Below, piece by piece: positions 2,929 to 64,000 of a DNA stretch of 64,000 nt (its first letter is position 1; each line of letters starts with the position of its first letter). The notes under the pieces were generated by a model, which did not search any database, had not been told where the DNA came from, and saw only the letters and a program-made list of their open reading frames with translations. Position numbers and translations under genes: made by a program. This DNA is from a virus, in IMG/VR virus record IMGVR_UViG_3300034683_000333, one strand, 5' to 3'.

Positions 2929-2956
2929 TTAGGTTAAATTTAACTGTTAATTTCAT
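2929..2956 (-). pseudogene. tnpB: N-terminal stub of the outer tnpB
   Basis: ATG AAA TTA ACA GTT AAA TTT AAC CTA A follows tnpA and is cut by the inner IS. Confidence 0.7.
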
Positions 2957-2970
2957 AATTCACCACCTTT

Positions 2971-3369
2971 CTATACATTCTTTTGATTTTCTATATATTT
3001 TTGTATTGCTTTTTCGCTTACGTATCCAACAGTACAGCAAAAATAACTTCGTGTCCAAAGTGAAGGGATTCTACTTCTTAATTCAGGATATTTTTCTCTT
3101 AAAATTCTACTGCTTGTTCCTTTAAAATATCGTACTAAACTGTGCAAATGTTGTCGTGGATCGAAACTTATAAACATATGAACATGGTCTGGTATTATTT
3201 CTAATGCTTTTATTTCAACATCTTTCTCTTTAGCTATATCATAAAATATTTGCCTTAAATCTTTCTCTATATCTCCAACTAACACCTTACGTCTGTATTT
3301 AGGACAAAATACTATATGATATTGATTAAGATATACTATACCTTCTTTATGTGTGTATTTATCTTCCAT
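2971..3369 (-). CDS. tnpA: IS200-type Y1 transposase of the outer element
   Basis: YHIVFCPKYRR, PDHVHMF, LWTRSYF and IQKYIENQ. Ends on TAG (standard-code stop). Confidence 0.95.
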   Translation of the reverse strand: MEDKYTHKEGIVYLNQYHIVFCPKYRRKVLVGDIEKDLRQIFYDIAKEKDVEIKALEIIPDHVHMFISFDPRQHLHSLVRYFKGTSSRILREKYPELRSRIPSLWTRSYFCCTVGYVSEKAIQKYIENQKNV

Positions 3370-8287: not shown

Positions 8288-9199
8288 TCATTTTACGATT
8301 CTATTTTTAAAGTTTATGTAATCAATATTATAGAAAATCTTCCTAAAAGAAGCCTTATTGTTTGTGATTTTTCTTAAATACACTTCGCCCGTTGCAACAT
8401 CTTTCATAACCAAGTAAAAATCTACAAACTTTGAAAATTGATCCATACTCGAAAAATTTTGCGAAAGAATTTGTTGTTCGAGCGCATCGGCATTTCTCAA
8501 AGGAGATGACGTAACGGTGAATCGAACCTCAAAAAAGGGAATGTACTTTGTTTGAGAACGAATATCAGGATCATCAATTATAAATGCAAAATGGGTGGAA
8601 TCCTTAAACGAACGGGACTATTCAAAAAAGGAAGAATCAACTGGTGTTTCAAAGTCGTCGTGTTCAAAGAAATCGTCAAAATTGTATTTAGAAAGTATGA
8701 ATGGCGGAATTTCGTTATAGGCCGTTTCGTCAAAGAAAAATGACGAGTTGTAGAAACGTTTTTCTGTTACAAGCTTATCTCCAAAGTAAAAATAGTATAT
8801 AACTTCAATGGGAAATCTAAAAACAGATTTGATTTCATCTCCTGCATCCAACAACTGGGATTTGATCACCGGAACATGCATAATTTTTGAAAACGACGTA
8901 TTAAACTTTGGATAAAATGCCAACTATCGAAACCAACTATCGAGATCTTCTTCATAATTTAGAATATTTAGAACACTTGTCTCGTCATAGTTCAATAACA
9001 GGTCTTCGTTATCAATGGGGATTAAGTTAATCTTCATCGAAAGCTTTTCGCTTGTATCGATTAAAGTGGACAACGAGGCAATATCTATAAGCGCATTGTT
9101 ATATGAAAATTTTGAATCAGATTTTTTACTTAAAGGAACAATTACACCAAGACGTTCATTATAATTATATATGATTTCTCGTAATTTTGCATTGTCCAT
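8288..9199 (-). CDS. 303-aa hypothetical protein (2 TAGs)
   Basis: AAGGAG RBS. TAG at 8924 and 8618 joins three track ORFs. Ends on TGA. Confidence 0.82.
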
Positions 9200-30088: not shown

Positions 30089-30165
30089 TGGACCCCGTGG
30101 CAGGATTCGAACCCGCACCCAACGGATTTAGAGTCCGTCGCTCTAACCAATTGAGCTACACGGGG
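30089..30165 (-). tRNA. Amber suppressor tRNA, anticodon CUA, CCA encoded
   Basis: CCCCGTG TA GCTC AATTGGTTA GAGC G ACGGA CT-CTA-AA TCCGT TGGGT GCGGG TTCGAAT CCTGC CACGGGG T CCA forms a canonical cloverleaf. Confidence 0.96.
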
Positions 30166-30251: not shown

Positions 30252-31493
30252 TTACACTACCCTTATTCTCAAAGGGTGGTTCAAACACCCATTATCCCTC
30301 GCAACTTGTATTGCTCTGGGAATGCCTTTGATATATTTTCTTAATATATTCAATGCCCCATTTACGTCAGCATTAATTAACATACCATTGTTTGTTTTAA
30401 AAAGACCTCTCGTTATTCTTCTTGACTTATTGTAATTAGCTTTATTTATTTCTTCTAAATCTATTGCACTACACCCACTTGTATAAGATTCATTAATCAT
30501 TACTACCTTTAACCCTACCAACTCTGCCTTATATTTTATTTTATTGACTAATTCTTGTTGTGGTATTTGCACAAAACTCTTAGCGAAATTCTCTTGTTTA
30601 ATTCCTCTAATATCACCTATAACTATTGTATTACAATTCATTGTAAGTGCTAATTCTACTATTTTTTTACTTATTTTGTGTAATTTATCTTTAATATAAT
30701 CATTTCTTTTCTTTTGTAATTTTATTATTTTCTTTGTTCTTTTAAAATTTTTGCTATCATTACATTGTTTCATAGCAATAGAAGTTAATCTTGCTATTTC
30801 TTTATTGTAATAAGCATTTTTACTTTTTAAATGCTTACCACTAAAAATAATACATTGTTCATTATCTTTAAATACACAAGTTGCAAGATTATCTAATCCT
30901 AAATCAATTGCCATTACATTATCACCAGTTACTTTATTTATAATTTCATTTTCCCATATTATTAGTAAATACCATCTTTTAGAAGAATTATTCCATTGTA
31001 ATTTAATTTGATTAATCCTCGATAAATTCACAGGTATTTTGACATTCTTCATGTCAAAATTTAAACTTTGAACCTGAAACTTATCTTGTATTGCCTTTGA
31101 TAATGATAGCTTTAATATACCATTTTTATACCTTATCCCTGCTGTTGTAAATATTATCTCGTTCTTTTTATTATTTGTATTCTTAAACTTTGGTGGTTTA
31201 GGCAATCCTAAATATTTATTTGGATTTTTCTTATAATCTTTTATTGAAGCAAAATAAGATTTCCAATCCTGTTCTAACATCTTCAAACACCATTGATAAG
31301 TGTGCGAATGTAGAAATTGTGTATGATAATTTTGCTTATATAACTTTTCAGTTTCATAATAGTTTTTAAAACCATTTTCTCTATTTTCATAGTTTGCTAT
31401 GTTATATAGCTTTGTTGTATGATATGATAATTCTTCTATAATATTTTGTTGTAATTGATTTAATTTAGGATAGTATTTAAAACTTACTTTCAT
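30252..31493 (-). CDS. tnpB: TnpB nuclease (clade lacking the Zn finger)
   Basis: AIDLGLDNL, INESYTS and INADVNGALNI. Confidence 0.9.
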   Translation of the reverse strand: MKVSFKYYPKLNQLQQNIIEELSYHTTKLYNIANYENRENGFKNYYETEKLYKQNYHTQFLHSHTYQWCLKMLEQDWKSYFASIKDYKKNPNKYLGLPKPPKFKNTNNKKNEIIFTTAGIRYKNGILKLSLSKAIQDKFQVQSLNFDMKNVKIPVNLSRINQIKLQWNNSSKRWYLLIIWENEIINKVTGDNVMAIDLGLDNLATCVFKDNEQCIIFSGKHLKSKNAYYNKEIARLTSIAMKQCNDSKNFKRTKKIIKLQKKRNDYIKDKLHKISKKIVELALTMNCNTIVIGDIRGIKQENFAKSFVQIPQQELVNKIKYKAELVGLKVVMINESYTSGCSAIDLEEINKANYNKSRRITRGLFKTNNGMLINADVNGALNILRKYIKGIPRAIQVARDNGCLNHPLRIRVV

Positions 31494-57961: not shown

Positions 57962-59470
57962 ATGAAAATAAAAAAGCGAAAGAACAACCCAAAACTAATA
58001 AAAACACCACAATCGGTCATCCGCATAAATGATGGTAAAACTGAAGTTTATCGTCAACATTTTTACAAGTTAGCAAATAAACAAAAAAACATCAATCTTA
58101 ATCGAATAGGATTAAACAAAGACGAACGTTTGATAGTTGACACACTACTTGAACATTCCGATAAGGTATATCTTGTTGGTGGTGCTGTAAGAGATTTATT
58201 TCTCGGCAAAAAACCAAAGGATTTTGATTTAGCAACTGATTTAAAACCAGAAGAAATCATAAAAATTTTTGGTGAAGACAAAGCAAAATTAACGGGAAAT
58301 GTATTTCCAACAGTCCGAGTAAAAATAAATGATTCTGAGATTGAAGTAAGTACATTCAGAAAGGAAATTGGAGAACCAACCGGAGATAGAAAGCAATTTA
58401 CCGTAAAATATGCCACAACAATCCAAGAAGACCTGGATAGAAGAGATCTTTCCATCAACGCCATTGCCATCAATTGCAAAACGGGGGAAATCGTCGATCC
58501 ACACAATGGAATTTCAGATATTGAAAACAAAGTTATTCGATTTGTAGGCGATCCACGTGATCGACTCCGGGAAGATCCTTTGCGGTTCTACCGGGCCATT
58601 CGATTTCGTCTTAAATTGGATGGAAAATATGCACCCGAAACGATTTCGGCTCTTAAAGACCCATCAGTGGTCCAAATGGTAAAGGAAAATGTATCTAAAG
58701 AACGAATCCGAGAAGAGATTTTAAAGTCCATGAGCGCCACACAACGGGCGTCTGGATTTTTCAGGGATTTACATGCGTTCGGTATGTTGGAATACCTGTT
58801 CCCACCACTAGCCAAGTCCGTAAAACACGACGGTGGTCCACACCACGGGGAAGATGTGTTCACCCATGCTATGTTGGTGGGAGACAATTTCACCCCACGA
58901 ATCCCCAACGATCCCAATGAATCTCTGGCAAAACTGGCCGCTTACCTACACGACATTGGGAAACCAAGCACATACGACCCCGAAAACCGCTCCTTCTATA
59001 ATCACGAAAAAATTGGAGTTTCTGTTGCAACTGAAATTCTAAAAAGCTTGAAATTCTCTACTAAAGAGATAGAATATGTATCGAAATTCATTCGCTACCA
59101 CATGAACAAACCGACCACCCCAAAGGGCGCTCGAAAACTGATTCAACAATTCGGTGAAGAAGATTTGCCCAATCTCATCGAGCTTTTTCACGCAGACACA
59201 ATCTCAAACTTGAACAAAACGCCGGAAGAGATTAAATTTAGTAAGGAAAAGATTGAAAATATACGGATTTTAATTGATGAGGTAAATTCAGAAAAAGATA
59301 AATTTTTGAAACCAATAATTACGGGCCACACACTCATAAACGAACTCAAACTTAAACCCGGAAAAATTTTCAAGGAAATTCTCGATTTTGCAAACGAATT
59401 GACCTTGGAAGATCCAAATAGAACCAAAGAGGAAATACTTAACCAAATTAAGAGGAAATTTGATTTATGA
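57962..59470 (+). CDS. cca: Class II CCA-adding tRNA nucleotidyltransferase with an HD domain
   Basis: VGGAVRD..DFD, DLDRRDLSINA, EDPLR, and H..HDIGK. Confidence 0.88.
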   Translation: MKIKKRKNNPKLIKTPQSVIRINDGKTEVYRQHFYKLANKQKNINLNRIGLNKDERLIVDTLLEHSDKVYLVGGAVRDLFLGKKPKDFDLATDLKPEEIIKIFGEDKAKLTGNVFPTVRVKINDSEIEVSTFRKEIGEPTGDRKQFTVKYATTIQEDLDRRDLSINAIAINCKTGEIVDPHNGISDIENKVIRFVGDPRDRLREDPLRFYRAIRFRLKLDGKYAPETISALKDPSVVQMVKENVSKERIREEILKSMSATQRASGFFRDLHAFGMLEYLFPPLAKSVKHDGGPHHGEDVFTHAMLVGDNFTPRIPNDPNESLAKLAAYLHDIGKPSTYDPENRSFYNHEKIGVSVATEILKSLKFSTKEIEYVSKFIRYHMNKPTTPKGARKLIQQFGEEDLPNLIELFHADTISNLNKTPEEIKFSKEKIENIRILIDEVNSEKDKFLKPIITGHTLINELKLKPGKIFKEILDFANELTLEDPNRTKEEILNQIKRKFDL

Positions 59471-59880
59471 AAGATAGCATAAACGAAAAAGCGAATCTTT
59501 TCATCAACATAGTAAAAAAAAGTAACGGTATGCTCCACGCTTGTGTGATACTGATGGATGACGATTTTTCGTTGTTAGATACCTATTCAAACCACAACAT
59601 CAAAGAAGAGGTCCTGAAAAACACACTGAAATCAATGATCTTGACATATTTGCCAGAAAACCTAGCTATTAACATCATTTCATCTACACCGAATATTTAT
59701 GAAATAGTTCCAGAAATAATTCCAACTGAAATCGTAAAAATAAATAATATATGTAACAAGGAAGATTTATTACATTACTACTCGCTTAGTGAAGATTACA
59801 CACTAGCGAAAGACGAGAAAGAAAACTTTGAAAAACTCGTGAATCTTTGCGAAATGACAATAGAGTTCTACAAATCTTAA
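59467..59880 (+). CDS. Hypothetical protein
   Basis: ATGA overlap with cca. Confidence 0.65.
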   Translation: MKDSINEKANLFINIVKKSNGMLHACVILMDDDFSLLDTYSNHNIKEEVLKNTLKSMILTYLPENLAINIISSTPNIYEIVPEIIPTEIVKINNICNKEDLLHYYSLSEDYTLAKDEKENFEKLVNLCEMTIEFYKS

Positions 59881-59893
59881 TTGGAGAGCCAAC

Positions 59894-60385
59894 ATGAAGT
59901 TTAACAAAAACTAGGCAAAAGAACGATTTTACAAATTCAATCACAGCGGTGCGGCAACCGACATAAAACTCACATTATTCGAATGCCGCTCAATGAAAGA
60001 ATTCTGGGAAACTCTCGAAGAAGGCTTCGGTCCAATCCGAGACGACGTTCTTTACGGGAAGGGAAAATTTTTTAGTAAAGAAGAAATTCATAAATTCAAG
60101 GAAGATCGAATTCTTACGGACTACACACGAGAGGTTCACGACATCTTGCGGTTTCTCTCGACACCCGACGTATTTCGAACATTCGAAAAATTATATTTTC
60201 AGGAAACCGACAAACCCGACCTTTTCACTAGAGAAAATAGTCGGAAATTTTATGAGATGGCATGGCGTCCCTTTATCAAAGACCTACATGCTATCGGGAA
60301 TATCGAGAAGAATTGGAAAAAATACCTAACTAACTATGCGAAAAAACTAAATAAAACGAAGGTAAAAGTAAAACAGATCACTTAA
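59894..60385 (+). CDS. Hypothetical protein (TAG at codon 7)
   Basis: GGAGAG RBS with ATG 59894, in frame with the track ORF. Confidence 0.7.
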
Positions 60386-60502: not shown

Positions 60503-61729
60503 ATGCGATTGATGGAGAGTTTCACCCCCACCGACTATTCCGTTTCGATGGTTGGCTTTCGTCCAACGTCCAATTTGCACCTTGGGCACTATCTTTCCAT
60601 TATCAAACCAATTTTAGAAAATCAGTTTAAAACAATAATTTTTTCGGCTGAACTACACACCCTTACTTCTTCACAACATCACCCCGGTCGTGCGTTGAAA
60701 GACGCACGAGAAACCACAATCCAATGTATCACGACAATTTCTCGCTATGTCAACCTGGACCCTGAACATGTTGTTTTTATCAGCCAATATGAGATGAAAG
60801 ACAAACACTATGAACTCCATAACATGATTATCAACGCTGGAACCACACCGGCAATTCTATTCAGAAACCCAATTTACGTCAGTGCACTTAAGAATGAATT
60901 CATTGATTACCTAAACGATAAGCAGACATTAAACGAAGAAGAGATAAATTGCATCGTGGATGTTTTCTTTTCTCATTCCGATATCCTGATTGGTGGGCTA
61001 ACGCCCTTGGGAACAAACTGTATCATCAACCAACTCGAAAAATGCAAAATTGATAAAAAGACAATCAATGAAATAATCCATCACGTAACCAAAATCTCTT
61101 ATGGAAATCTGGGACTAGCCCATTATCCTCTTCTCATGGCGGCTGATGTGATCCTCTACGAACCCGACACACTCATTGTCGGTGACGACCAGAAACCCAA
61201 CGTCCAAATAATCCACGAAATCATCGATATGTTGACACATCGATGGAACATTGGCATCAAGCGATTTCGACCCGTTTATTCAGGCGACCGACCCCTTTGT
61301 GGATTCGACGGACGCAAAATGTCGAGTTCTCTAAATAATTATCTTCTACTCGATTGGTTCACGACCGCAAAAGATCTAGTTTACGAATATTACAATAGAT
61401 TTATCACTTATCCGAGACGCCGAACTGAACCTGGAATCTTCCACGAGTGTCCATTAAGCACACACTGGATCGCCTTTGGAAACAAAGACCAGATTGAAGA
61501 AATTCAATCAGCTTGCGAAACAGCAAAAATTGGATGCCTAGATTGTAAACGTAAAATTGCGGAACACATGTTGGTCACATTGAAACCACGATTTAGGGCC
61601 ATACCAAACGTCAAAAGTCTCATCGAAGAAGGAAGTTGGTGGGCCAAAAATCGAATTAAAAATTCGAGTATATTTTCAGATTGGAATTATTCAGAAACCT
61701 TCGATTCGCTAGATATTCTTACCTACTGA
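60503..61729 (+). CDS. trpS: Divergent bacterial-type tryptophanyl-tRNA synthetase
   Basis: GFRPTSNLHLGH (HIGH), AELH, YPLLMAAD, VGDDQ, GRKMSSS (KMSKS) and CETAKIGCLDCK. About 65-aa insertion. No TAG. Confidence 0.9.
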   Translation: MRLMESFTPTDYSVSMVGFRPTSNLHLGHYLSIIKPILENQFKTIIFSAELHTLTSSQHHPGRALKDARETTIQCITTISRYVNLDPEHVVFISQYEMKDKHYELHNMIINAGTTPAILFRNPIYVSALKNEFIDYLNDKQTLNEEEINCIVDVFFSHSDILIGGLTPLGTNCIINQLEKCKIDKKTINEIIHHVTKISYGNLGLAHYPLLMAADVILYEPDTLIVGDDQKPNVQIIHEIIDMLTHRWNIGIKRFRPVYSGDRPLCGFDGRKMSSSLNNYLLLDWFTTAKDLVYEYYNRFITYPRRRTEPGIFHECPLSTHWIAFGNKDQIEEIQSACETAKIGCLDCKRKIAEHMLVTLKPRFRAIPNVKSLIEEGSWWAKNRIKNSSIFSDWNYSETFDSLDILTY

Positions 61730-62211
61730 TTACCAACCAGCTTCCACATCCGAAAACACGAAAGGGGAACCGAAAAAAACGGTTCCCTTTTTGTATATTT
61801 AGTGTTTTTAAAAATGATATTTGACTGCTTAATTACATCCATCGTTGTAATCAAAAGCGTATTCAAACTGGAATTAAACATGACATACACTTCCGCTTTA
61901 CAATGGCGTTTTCTAGCTGGCACATCAACAGTTTCCTAACCTTGCCATTCTCCATATTTAGTCCACACATTTTTGACTTCCACTTCAACCGGAATATAAC
62001 AATCATTTTCCTTATCATATAACATAATATCAAAATCACGATATTGTTCTTCGTCTGGTACAATAACATCATATCGTTTGAATTGACAAAAAAATGACGC
62101 ACCCACATTCTTTGCAGGTGCGTCAAATTGTTCGTAATGAATTCTACTGAATTTCTTTTTTCCAACGGAGATTTCAGAACAAGAGGCGGATTCCATTCCC
62201 ACTTTTCGCAC
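61687..62211 (-). CDS. Hypothetical PD-(D/E)XK-like phage protein (TAG readthrough)
   Basis: DFD..PVEVEVK..W. TAG 61936 joins two ORFs. It may stop at TAG 61723 or TAA 61687. Confidence 0.6.
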
Positions 62212-63726: not shown

Positions 63727-64000
63727 TTAAAACCTCCAAATAACTTTTTTAACTGCATTTACACAATACTTTGATTTGTTACTATACCAAATATCAACAT
63801 ATATACTACAATATTTAACCAACGCCTCACTATGTAACTTATAATCTATCTTAGATTTGTCCCACCACTTATGAAACTGCTTAGAGTTATACTGTGCCAA
63901 TTTACCAGCATGTCGATAGTTAAATTTCTCTCCATCCCACCAAACATCAAAATACTCTGAGCAATACTTAGGTAAATATCCAGAATCTTTTTTCCAATTG
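63727..64000 (-). CDS. Hypothetical protein, 5'-partial
   Basis: Open frame to TAA 63727 with repeated KYCS.Y.D.W motifs. Confidence 0.6.
   Translation of the reverse strand, partial: NWKKDSGYLPKYCSEYFDVWWDGEKFNYRHAGKLAQYNSKQFHKWWDKSKIDYKLHSEALVKYCSIYVDIWYSNKSKYCVNAVKKVIWRF

What the first reader, a model, noticed from the sequence alone, without database searches (positions are those of the whole stretch)
60503..61729. Phage TrpRS keeps its Trp pocket but has an approximately 65-aa insertion and divergent tRNA-contact regions
Seen: HIGH and KMSKS motifs and the Trp-pocket residues (His of AELH, Met and Asp of LMAAD, Gln of GDDQ) are intact. An extra segment lies between RNPIYV and YPLLMAAD. 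The helix after GDDQ and the anticodon-domain TYPRRRTEPG differ from bacterial TrpRS as I recall it. The gene has no TAG, as needed to bootstrap a code switch. Inference: the amino acid specificity is retained and the tRNA specificity has been rewired.
Basis: partly seen in the sequence, partly recalled or inferred. Interest (0 to 1): 0.8.

Follow-up and report, generated by a model that had tools for sequence, protein, structure and literature searches.

The report
Phage TrpRS rewired for amber tRNA
A large uncultured subsurface phage that reads the stop codon TAG as tryptophan encodes its own tryptophan-charging enzyme, which keeps the tryptophan pocket but has lost the residues that normally read the tRNA's middle anticodon base and discriminator base, so it looks like the private partner of the phage's TAG-reading tRNA.

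Summary
Window 60503-61729(+) is a TAG-free, bacterial-type TrpRS of the [4Fe-4S] (Thermotoga-like) subclass. HIGH and the Trp pocket are intact, but KMSKS reads KMSSS. An insertion of about 63 aa sits in CP1.

Inside this phage's genes, TAG aligns with Trp in homologues. Relatives interchange TAG with TGG. The enzyme belongs to a clade of at least 25 metagenomic TrpRSs, and every contig of that clade I could read is phage-like and TAG-interrupted.

All 25 lack three residues that contact tRNA in the E. coli TrpRS-tRNA crystal structure:
- the Glu that reads G73 is mostly Gln;
- the Arg on the nucleotide-1 phosphate is Asn or His;
- the Asp that reads N4 of C35 is mostly Tyr or Phe.

The phage tRNA(CUA) has a tRNA-Trp-like body but U35, U73 and C-G at pairs 1-72 to 4-69.

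The insertion is probably not the specificity switch. Aquificota housekeeping TrpRSs carry a same-site insertion, keep Glu and Asp, and a Thermocrinis genome with such an enzyme has a canonical tRNA-Trp(CCA, G73).

Nothing was tested biochemically. Other agents of this scan already flagged TAG=Trp on this same genome. I found no report of a TrpRS:tRNA(CUA) pair in the papers I searched.

The parts
60503..61729 (+). Phage TrpRS gene, 408 aa. An alternative start at M4 (60512) gives the 405-aa database form P0001.
   Evidence: ORF. PF00579. PDB TrpRS hits. AF2 model pLDDT 90.5. Foldseek matches to bacterial TrpRS structures.
60578..60589 (+). HIGH motif (H26-L-G-H29)
   Evidence: Alignments. H26 is invariant.
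60896..61093 (+). CP1 insertion, about residues 132-197 (about +63 aa), predicted as a confident helical bundle
   Evidence: 85 versus a modal 22 residues between anchors. Helices 123-139, 145-155, 159-162, 168-180 and 185-197 at pLDDT 88-97. No solved TrpRS has it.
61136..61192 (+). Specificity helix and GxDQ, residues 212-230, with Trp-pocket residues M212, D215 and Q230
   Evidence: Columns invariant or nearly so across 126 other TrpRSs.
61205..61216 (+). Q235 in place of the G73-reading Glu (E. coli E155), and H238 in place of the Arg on the nucleotide-1 phosphate (E. coli R158)
   Evidence: Glu in 124/126 and Arg in 121/126 other TrpRSs. No Glu and no Arg in any of 25 clade members. Roles from PMC12135181.
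61316..61330 (+). KMSKS loop, reading KMSSS (S275)
61406..61414 (+). T302-Y303-P304 anticodon loop. Y303 replaces the Asp that reads N4 of C35 (E. coli D226).
   Evidence: Other TrpRSs have Asp 112 and Asn 12 of 126. The clade has Tyr, Phe, His or Ile and never Asp. Role from PMC12135181.
61448..61546 (+). Four Cys of the [4Fe-4S] motif (C316, C338, C345, C348; C-x21-C-x6-C-x2-C) and K349 (E. coli K274)
   Evidence: Alignment to 2g36. Motif from PMC2954223. Cys present in all 25 clade members.
30089..30165 (-). tRNA(CUA), the presumed substrate. It has C-G at pairs 1-72 to 4-69, G5-C68, U73, an encoded CCA, and anticodon loop CU-CUA-AA.
   Evidence: ARAGORN. Sequence. 83.6% identity over positions 4-70 to mycobacteriophage tRNA-Trp(CCA).
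61687..62211 (-). Neighbouring gene with two in-frame TAGs (61936-61938 and 61723-61725), used to read the meaning of TAG. Its 3' end overlaps the TrpRS 3' end.
   Evidence: 150 homologues: the TAG-163 column is Trp in 120/133. The TAG-92 column is Tyr 56, Trp 42, Phe 40, Gln 0.
57962..59470 (+). CCA-adding enzyme with HD domain, same strand, two small ORFs upstream of TrpRS. Possibly part of one translation module.
   Evidence: PF01743, PF01966, PF13735, PF12627.

Best explanation
The gene encodes a bacterial-type, [4Fe-4S]-subclass tryptophanyl-tRNA synthetase. It still activates tryptophan, but its tRNA-reading surface has been changed so that it charges the phage's own tRNA(CUA) instead of, or in preference to, canonical tRNA-Trp(CCA, G73).

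Proposed mechanism:
1. The gene contains no TAG, so it can be translated by the standard-code host early in infection.
2. The enzyme then loads Trp onto tRNA(CUA), whose acceptor end (C-G at pairs 1-72 to 4-69, U73) should be ignored by the host TrpRS and by the Gln-charging enzymes.
3. The 168 in-frame TAGs counted in 52 ORFs of the 126.5-kb piece I hold can then be read as Trp.

Shown here: family membership, fold, motif status, the clade-wide residue replacements, the tRNA sequence features, and the statistical meaning of TAG.

Inferred: that Q235, H238 and Y303 read U73, the 5' end and U35; that the pair is orthogonal to the host; that the enzyme is active with KMSSS; and that it binds an Fe-S cluster.
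For: TrpRS identity and intact pocket.

TAG means Trp:
- In the adjacent gene, 150 standard-code homologues have Trp in 120/133 at one TAG column and only aromatics at the other. The query was submitted with Gln at the TAGs, which biases against Trp.
- A paralogue and two homologues of a 401-aa gene have Tyr, Trp, Asn and Thr, Phe, Phe at two TAGs.
- A BLOSUM62 likelihood over 22 distant pairs puts Trp first and Gln 19 nats worse.
- Among six related contigs, TAG faces TGG in 101 of 191 differing columns and Gln codons in 8.

Rewired contacts:
- Of 53 columns at least 88% conserved in 125 other TrpRSs, 10 are listed as changed in all four first-found clade members. Three of these are E155, R158 and D226. 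T225 and K274 are kept.
- The pattern holds in all 25 clade members: no Glu at 155 (Gln in 21), no Asp at 226 (Tyr, Phe or His in 24), no Arg at 158.
- A standard-code phage TrpRS (Microcystis phage MaAM05) and all 15 Aquificota enzymes keep Glu, Arg and Asp.
- Residue roles come from PMC12135181.

tRNA:
- The body is tRNA-Trp-like but carries U35, U73 and inverted pairs 1-4.
- Bacterial TrpRS needs G73, C35 and G2-C71, G3-C70, G4-C69.
- E. coli GlnRS mischarges amber tRNA-Trp and depends on pairs 1-72, 3-70 and the discriminator (PMC9976931).

Clade context: the four first-found enzymes form one clade (SH-aLRT 100). All readable contigs (L001, L003, L008, L135-L138) are phage-like and TAG-interrupted.
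Against: - No aminoacylation, mass-spectrometry or expression data exist.
- The enrichment of tRNA-contact residues among changed conserved columns is only marginal on its own. My hand hypergeometric took 3 of 5 contacts against 8 of 48 others (11 changed columns) and gave P about 0.05. I can name only 10 changed columns, which would make it 3 of 5 against 7 of 48. The clade is divergent everywhere.
- The gene and the tRNA lie 30 kb apart on opposite strands, not in one operon.
- No tRNA(CUA) was found in the parts of the relatives' contigs that I hold, including about 30 kb of a 66.7-kb contig.
- The second Lys of KMSKS is lost in this enzyme alone.
- Whether Gln and Tyr actually read U73 and U35 is chemical reasoning, not a model with RNA.
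Confidence: 0.7

Rival explanations
1. Relaxed rather than switched specificity. The enzyme charges both canonical tRNA-Trp(CCA) and tRNA(CUA), acting as a general Trp-tRNA booster that also tolerates the suppressor.
For: T225, K274 and the C34/A36 side of the anticodon site are kept. One published phage TrpRS for a UCA tRNA (HF2) also charges E. coli tRNA-Trp (PMC12636597).
Against: Loss of the G73-reading Glu lowers activity strongly in E. coli and B. subtilis enzymes (PMC12135181). All 25 clade members lack it, and they also lack the Asp that donates specificity for C35.
Confidence: 0.15
2. An ordinary auxiliary synthetase, as in other large phages, that serves tRNA-Trp(CCA) and has nothing to do with TAG. 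Under this reading tRNA(CUA) is charged by a host enzyme.
For: Large phages do carry synthetases without recoding, for example Microcystis phage MaAM05 trpS. The gene is not next to the tRNA.
Against: MaAM05 keeps Glu, Arg and Asp, and this clade does not. The clade was found only on TAG-interrupted phage contigs. TAG aligns with Trp. Host TrpRS should reject U35 and U73.
Confidence: 0.08
3. The CP1 insertion is the element that rewires tRNA choice.
For: It replaces the E. coli 112-123 segment. That segment holds E119 and I121, which make water-mediated contacts to the phosphates of C68 and C69. All 25 clade members have the insertion.
Against: Aquificota housekeeping TrpRSs have a same-site insertion of +65 to +69 aa with a similar helix pattern. 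They keep E155 and D226, and a Thermocrinis genome with such an enzyme has tRNA-Trp(CCA) with G73. A phage-plus-Aquificota clade is not rejected and fits slightly better than the free tree.
Confidence: 0.2
4. TAG encodes another aromatic residue (Tyr or Phe), and the TrpRS is incidental.
For: One TAG column is Tyr 56, Trp 42, Phe 40. Tyr and Phe are the next most frequent partners of TAG. C1-G72 recalls archaeal tRNA-Tyr.
Against: Trp is 120/133 at the other column. TGG accounts for 101 of 191 partners although Trp is about 1.5% of codons. The tRNA has a short variable arm and U73, unlike bacterial tRNA-Tyr. No TyrRS or PheRS was seen, and PF00579 matches only this gene.
Confidence: 0.04

Closest known systems
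Phage 'code-change' TrpRS:tRNA-Trp(UCA) pairs (Jade phages in Borges et al., bioRxiv 10.1101/2021.08.26.457843; AP1 and HF2 pairs in PMC12636597)
   Same: A phage-encoded TrpRS, itself free of the recoded stop, accompanies a phage suppressor tRNA and installs Trp at a former stop codon in a standard-code host. AP1 is orthogonal in E. coli.
   Different: Those pairs read UGA, where only wobble position 34 changes and bacterial TrpRS does not discriminate. They sit in an operon with RF1. Here the codon is UAG, so the central anticodon base changes. The enzyme has lost the C35-reading Asp and the G73-reading Glu. The tRNA is 30 kb away. No release factor was found in the 126.5-kb piece I hold. 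Borges et al. report only TAG to Gln and TGA to Trp.
Thermotoga maritima [4Fe-4S] TrpRS (PDB 2g36; PMC2954223)
   Same: It is the best sequence and fold match. The four-Cys motif in the anticodon-binding domain and the same catalytic core are present.
   Different: TmTrpRS has no CP1 insertion. It has Glu, Arg and Asp at the tRNA-reading positions and the usual KMSKS. The Cys spacing is x22 there and x21 here.
Aquificota housekeeping TrpRS with CP1 insertion (Hydrogenothermaceae, Sulfurihydrogenibium, Thermocrinis; P0004, P0014, L092-L103)
   Same: The insertion is at the same site, of similar length and with a similar helix pattern. The four Cys are present in P0004, the one member I tabulated. 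A joint clade with the phage enzymes is not rejected.
   Different: These genes sit in chromosomal housekeeping context. They keep E155, R158 and D226, and the Thermocrinis genome has tRNA-Trp(CCA, G73). Sequence similarity between the inserts is only marginal.
E. coli su+7 amber suppressor derived from tRNA-Trp
   Same: It is a tRNA-Trp body with anticodon CUA.
   Different: su+7 keeps the tRNA-Trp acceptor end and is mischarged with Gln (PMC9976931). The phage tRNA has inverted pairs 1-4 and U73, and comes with its own synthetase.

Membership tests
Bacterial-type TrpRS (class Ic, PF00579) | Rossmann catalytic domain with HIGH signature | tested here: met
   H26-L-G-H29. H26 is invariant in alignments. 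Pfam E 1.8e-27.
Bacterial-type TrpRS (class Ic, PF00579) | KMSKS loop | tested here: inconclusive
   The loop is present but reads KMSSS. The second Lys is kept in 124-125 of 126-127 others and in the other 24 clade members. From my own knowledge, human TyrRS (KMSSS) and human TrpRS (KMSAS) are active with such variants.
Bacterial-type TrpRS (class Ic, PF00579) | Trp pocket: specificity-helix Asp (E. coli D135) with Met, the His of the xDxHAxT strand, and GxDQ | tested here: met
   H52, M212, D215, G227, D229 and Q230.
Bacterial-type TrpRS (class Ic, PF00579) | Overall fold like solved bacterial TrpRSs | tested here: met
   AF2 pLDDT 90.5. Foldseek E 1e-14, TM to target 0.84 for 2g36.
Bacterial-type TrpRS (class Ic, PF00579) | Trp activation and tRNA charging | not testable with these tools
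   Needs ATP-PPi exchange and aminoacylation assays.
[4Fe-4S] TrpRS subclass (TmTrpRS type) | C-x22-C-x6-C-x2-C motif in the anticodon-binding domain | tested here: met
   C316, C338, C345 and C348 align to Tm C236, C259, C266 and C269. The first spacer is x21. Cluster binding itself was not tested.
Canonical bacterial tRNA-Trp(CCA, G73) recognition set (EcTrpRS-tRNA structure, PMC12135181) | Glu155 hydrogen-bonding to G73 | tested here: not met
   Q235. Gln in 21, and Tyr, His, Asn or similar in the rest of 25 clade members. Glu in 124/126 others.
Canonical bacterial tRNA-Trp(CCA, G73) recognition set (EcTrpRS-tRNA structure, PMC12135181) | Asp226 reading N4 of C35 | tested here: not met
   Y303. 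Tyr, Phe, His or Ile in the clade, and Asp or Asn in 124/126 others.
Canonical bacterial tRNA-Trp(CCA, G73) recognition set (EcTrpRS-tRNA structure, PMC12135181) | Arg158 on the phosphate of nucleotide 1 | tested here: not met
   H238. Asn or His in all 25 clade members, Arg in 121/126 others.
Canonical bacterial tRNA-Trp(CCA, G73) recognition set (EcTrpRS-tRNA structure, PMC12135181) | Thr225 and Lys274 (N3 and O2 of base 35, and A36) | tested here: met
   T302 and K349 are kept.
Phage code-change module (Borges et al.) | aaRS gene written without the recoded stop, in a genome that uses that stop as sense | tested here: met
   0 TAG in TrpRS. 168 in-frame TAGs in 52 of 117 ORFs.
Phage code-change module (Borges et al.) | Suppressor tRNA, aaRS and release factor clustered in one operon upstream of lysis genes | tested here: not met
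   The tRNA is 30 kb away on the other strand. No RF-1 domain was found in the 126.5-kb record, which is 64% complete.

The most novel reading that the evidence does not exclude
This is the synthetase half of a natural, host-orthogonal TrpRS:tRNA(CUA) pair that defines a phage genetic code with UAG = Trp. It is shared by a diverse clade of at least 25 subsurface and oil-reservoir-type phages. Specificity was switched by a few substitutions (Glu to Gln for base 73, Asp to Tyr or Phe for base 35, Arg to Asn or His at the 5' phosphate) on an Fe-S TrpRS scaffold that was probably acquired from an insert-bearing cellular lineage.
Probability: 0.6. Interest if true: 0.9.

Novelty: new variant of a known kind. 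Interest (0 to 1): 0.8.

Why it matters
Published recoded phages read TAG as Gln and TGA as Trp. The only phage TrpRS:tRNA pairs I found described serve UGA.

A TrpRS that has changed both its anticodon-35 reader and its discriminator reader would be a worked natural example of how a synthetase-tRNA pair is re-aimed at a stop codon. It would explain how a phage avoids the Gln mischarging that affects amber tRNA-Trp in E. coli. It would also be a ready candidate for an orthogonal amber-suppressing Trp system for genetic code expansion.

There is a practical consequence as well. Gene callers that assume TAG = Gln (code 15) mistranslate these phages.

Tried and rejected
- Pfam and PHROGs on about 36 TAG-containing ORFs gave almost no families, so most TAG columns could not be read against profiles.
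- A PDB search of the RuvC-like ORF gave only chance hits.
- Codon composition alone (TGG versus TAG per gene) did not discriminate Trp from Gln.
- Three IMG/VR scans with the protein or alignments found no relatives.
- An exact-DNA scan of species genomes for the L001 contig found nothing, and loci from the look-up of encoding contigs could not be extended through the genome search.
- A scan for the tRNA's anticodon and T arms in IMG/VR found only an unrelated tRNA(CUA) in an unrelated 175-kb phage without any PF00579 gene. I do not count it for or against.
- ARAGORN found no tRNA in the held parts of seven relatives' contigs. These contigs were sampled only in part.
- Insert homology between phage and Aquificota at sequence level was marginal: HMM scores beat 489-500 of 500 shuffles for some members and not for others, and hhalign probability was 5%.
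- The free tree did not place the phage clade with Aquificota, but the constrained tree had a higher likelihood, so the placement is open.
- Sequencing runs: no RNA holder was listed. Four DNA holders come from one subsurface study that may be the source.
- I did not run complex prediction, because it takes no RNA and a homodimer pass would only reflect likeness to solved TrpRS dimers.
Full report
**What is at the coordinates**

Window 60503-61729(+) is one uninterrupted 408-aa ORF under the standard code. The identical database protein starts three residues later and was seen on nine contigs, the longest 195 kb. The ORF matches Pfam PF00579 at E 1.8e-27. Its best solved relative is the T. maritima [4Fe-4S] TrpRS 2g36, at 1e-22. 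An AlphaFold2 model built on 83 sequences has mean pLDDT 90.5. The model matches only bacterial TrpRS structures; its TM-score to 2g36 is 0.84.

**Checking the observation**

- HIGH is present as H26-L-G-H29.
- The Trp pocket is intact. H52, M212, D215 and Q230 occupy the columns of E. coli H45, M132, D135 and Q150, which are invariant or nearly so in 126 other TrpRSs.
- KMSKS is not intact. It reads KMSSS, and the second Lys is otherwise almost universal. The same sequence was assembled from several samples, so this is not a read error. From my own knowledge, KMSSS and KMSAS variants are active in eukaryotic TyrRS and TrpRS, so I treat this as a caveat rather than as inactivation.
- The insertion is real. 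There are 85 residues between the N-P and Y-P anchors, against a mode of 22. It is predicted as a confident helical bundle. No solved TrpRS has it.
- The 'PRRR.EPG...C' stretch is largely the normal signature of the Fe-S subclass. All four Cys ligands of the C-x22-C-x6-C-x2-C motif are present, with x21 as the first spacer.
- The gene has no TAG and six TGG codons. TAG makes up 22% of TAG+TGG genome-wide, so zero TAG has P = 0.22. It is necessary for bootstrapping but not remarkable alone.

**Does this phage read TAG as Trp?**

The window belongs to a 126.5-kb IMG/VR record that CheckV estimates at 64% complete. Reading TAG through fuses fragments into long ORFs. There are 168 in-frame TAGs in 52 of 117 ORFs, and all ORFs end in TAA or TGA. 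The record has only two tRNAs, Ile(UAU) and one with anticodon CUA.

I tested the meaning of TAG in three ways.

1. The gene next to TrpRS (61687-62211, minus strand) has two TAGs. I submitted it with Gln at both, which biases against Trp, and got 211 homologues at E of 0.001 or better. I aligned the 150 listed. One TAG column is Trp in 120 of 133 filled cells. The other is Tyr 56, Trp 42, Phe 40 and never Gln. A relative at 48% TrpRS identity (L003) has TAG at both of the same positions.
2. In a 401-aa gene, a paralogue from the same phage has TGG where this copy has TAG, and the other partners are aromatic. A BLOSUM62 likelihood over 22 distant pairs ranks Trp first, Phe and Tyr 3-4 nats behind, and Gln 19 nats behind.
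3. Among six related contigs that carry this type of TrpRS, TAG faces TGG in 101 of 191 differing columns, Tyr codons in 24, Phe in 13 and Gln in 8. These pairs are not independent, and some wrong-frame ORFs are included. Even so, Trp is about 1.5% of codons, so the signal is very large.

I conclude that TAG = Trp, at roughly 0.93.

**The clade**

The first search found only two close relatives. A second search seeded with P0003 found 21 more. That makes 25 distinct enzymes of 384-414 aa.

The four first-found members form one clade with SH-aLRT 100. Every contig I could read (L001/L002, L003, L008, L135-L139) is phage-like, with GP88 and ParB-like genes and many small ORFs. All are TAG-interrupted and partly syntenic with this phage. 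In the P0003 subclade the gene sits between homologues of two genes that are adjacent in this phage. Here it sits elsewhere, next to a CCA-adding enzyme. So the gene is conserved while its position moved.

In 50,697 deposited phage genomes the only hit is Microcystis phage MaAM05 trpS. That enzyme has no insertion and keeps the canonical contact residues.

**What changed in the enzyme**

The E. coli TrpRS-tRNA crystal structure (PMC12135181) assigns these roles:

| E. coli residue | Role |
|---|---|
| Glu155 | two hydrogen bonds to G73 |
| Arg158 | phosphate of nucleotide 1 |
| Thr225, Asp226, Ser227, Lys274 | read C35 and A36, with Asp226 reading N4 of C35 |
| Tyr270, Gly271 backbone | read C34 |
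| Glu119, Ile121 | water-mediated contacts to the phosphates of C68 and C69 |

I scanned objectively for columns at least 88% conserved in 125 other TrpRSs and found 53. Ten columns listed in the output are changed in all four first-found clade members: G23, G71, K111, P145, E155, R158, F164, P175, D226 and A317.

Three of the five conserved tRNA-contact columns are among them. My hand hypergeometric calculation took 3 of 5 contacts against 8 of 48 others, which assumes 11 changed columns in total, and gave P about 0.05. With the 10 columns I can name, the split would be 3 of 5 against 7 of 48. The statistic is marginal either way.

The pattern is more telling than the statistic:
- The residue that distinguishes C from U at position 35 is replaced by Tyr, Phe or His in 24 of 25 members.
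- The residues that contact atoms shared by C and U (T225, K274) are kept.
- The G73 reader is never Glu, and is Gln in 21 of 25.
- Arg158 is never kept.

Two MAFFT modes and the HMMER alignment to 2g36 give the same equivalences.

**The tRNA**

Its body (positions 4-70) is 83.6% identical to mycobacteriophage tRNA-Trp(CCA), which is the top-scoring class of hits. The anticodon loop differs from those tRNAs only at position 35.

The acceptor end is different. It has C-G at pairs 1-72 to 4-69, then G5-C68, and U73. The identity review PMC9976931 lists G73, the anticodon and G2-C71, G3-C70, G4-C69 as determinants for bacterial TrpRS. It reports that amber tRNA-Trp is glutaminylated in E. coli. 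It also reports that GlnRS, and the indirect Gln pathway, depend on pairs 1-72 and 3-70 and on the discriminator.

So the tRNA differs from tRNA-Trp at the nucleotides whose protein readers have been replaced, and it lacks the acceptor determinants of the two host enzymes most likely to take it. That is the basis for calling the pair rewired and probably orthogonal. It is an inference.

**The insertion**

The insertion replaces E. coli residues 112-123, the CP1 segment that holds E119 and I121, so it must lie near the acceptor stem. However, a same-site insertion of +65 to +69 aa occurs in TrpRSs of Hydrogenothermaceae, Sulfurihydrogenibium and Thermocrinis.

- Those genes sit among ribosomal, trp and replication genes.
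- They keep E155 and D226 in 15 of 15.
- A Thermocrinis genome that has such a TrpRS has tRNA-Trp(CCA) with G1-C72 and G73.
- An AF2 model of one such enzyme (pLDDT 94.9) shows a comparable run of helices in the insert.
- Sequence similarity between the two inserts is marginal.
- A tree built without the insert columns does not reject a phage-plus-Aquificota clade. The constrained tree is 5.65 log-likelihood units better than the quick free search, with p-AU 0.57.

My reading, at about 0.65, is that the insertion was inherited from an insert-bearing cellular TrpRS lineage and is not what re-aims the enzyme.

**What remains open**

- No tRNA(CUA) was found in the held parts of the relatives' contigs.
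- No release factor was found in this 64%-complete record.
- The functions of the two small ORFs between the CCA-adding enzyme and TrpRS are unknown.
- No expression data exist.
- No biochemistry has been done.

**Comparison with the literature**

Borges et al. found TrpRS only in TGA-recoded Jade phages. They state that only TAG to Gln and TGA to Trp were seen in phages whose code differs from the host's. PMC12636597 characterises phage TrpRS:tRNA(UCA), GlnRS:tRNA(CUA) and TyrRS:tRNA(CUA) pairs and a UAG-to-Ala tRNA, but no TrpRS:tRNA(CUA) pair. My phrase searches found no report of amber read as Trp in phages. That covers only the open-access library.

Other agents of this scan have already flagged TAG = Trp, the tRNA and this enzyme on this same genome. 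I used two of their leads and tested them independently.

**Verdict**

This is a real, probably functional TrpRS. It is a new variant of the known phage code-change synthetases, aimed at UAG instead of UGA, and it carries a clade-wide signature at the tRNA-reading residues.

Noticed in passing
window 57962-59470 (+), with small ORFs at 59467-59880 and 59993-60385: A CCA-adding enzyme with an HD domain lies just upstream of TrpRS on the same strand. It contains no Trp codon at all in 502 aa. Two family-less ORFs separate it from TrpRS. This may be a tRNA-maintenance and charging module.
   Followed up: partly
window 61687-61729: TrpRS and the convergent minus-strand gene overlap by about 43 nt. 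One of that gene's Trp-coding TAGs (61723-61725) lies inside the last codons of TrpRS.
   Followed up: partly
window 63727-64000 (runs off the window; G000:C1:34629-35501): A 290-aa ORF has 29 TGG codons (10% Trp) and no TAG. It is built of repeats such as K-W-W-D. Such a Trp-rich, TAG-free protein is striking in a phage that also spells Trp as TAG.
   Followed up: no
window 2953-3369 (-) and 30252-31493 (-): An IS200-like Y1 transposase (Pfam E 1.6e-41) has its only TAG at the position where the standard-code ORF ends. So TAG may still mark the end of a recently acquired mobile gene. A homologue of L003's TnpB/Cas12f-like gene (31% identity over 137 aa; Pfam hit is on the L003 gene) lies directly beside the tRNA(CUA). 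The relative L003 carries that TnpB-like gene beside a structure that ARAGORN calls a tmRNA, which is more likely the element's guide RNA.
   Followed up: no
L092-L103, L088, L089 (Aquificota genomes): Housekeeping TrpRSs of Hydrogenothermaceae, Sulfurihydrogenibium, Thermocrinis and Aquificaceae carry a 65-69-aa helical insertion in CP1. It is absent from all solved TrpRS structures, and I found no description of it.
   Followed up: partly
L134 (IMGVR_UViG_3300032893_000003, 175 kb), 9009-9085 (-): An unrelated, complete phage genome has a tRNA(CUA) with the same anticodon arm and T loop, and also U73. Its D arm and acceptor stem are different, and it has no TrpRS or TyrRS family gene. What its TAG means was not examined.
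   Followed up: partly
G000:C1:14907-14983 (-), outside the window: The only other tRNA in the 126.5-kb record is tRNA-Ile(UAU).
   Followed up: no
window 60503-61729, residue 275: This phage's enzyme alone among the 25 clade members has Ser for the second Lys of KMSKS. This may mean slower catalysis or a compensating cation.
   Followed up: partly
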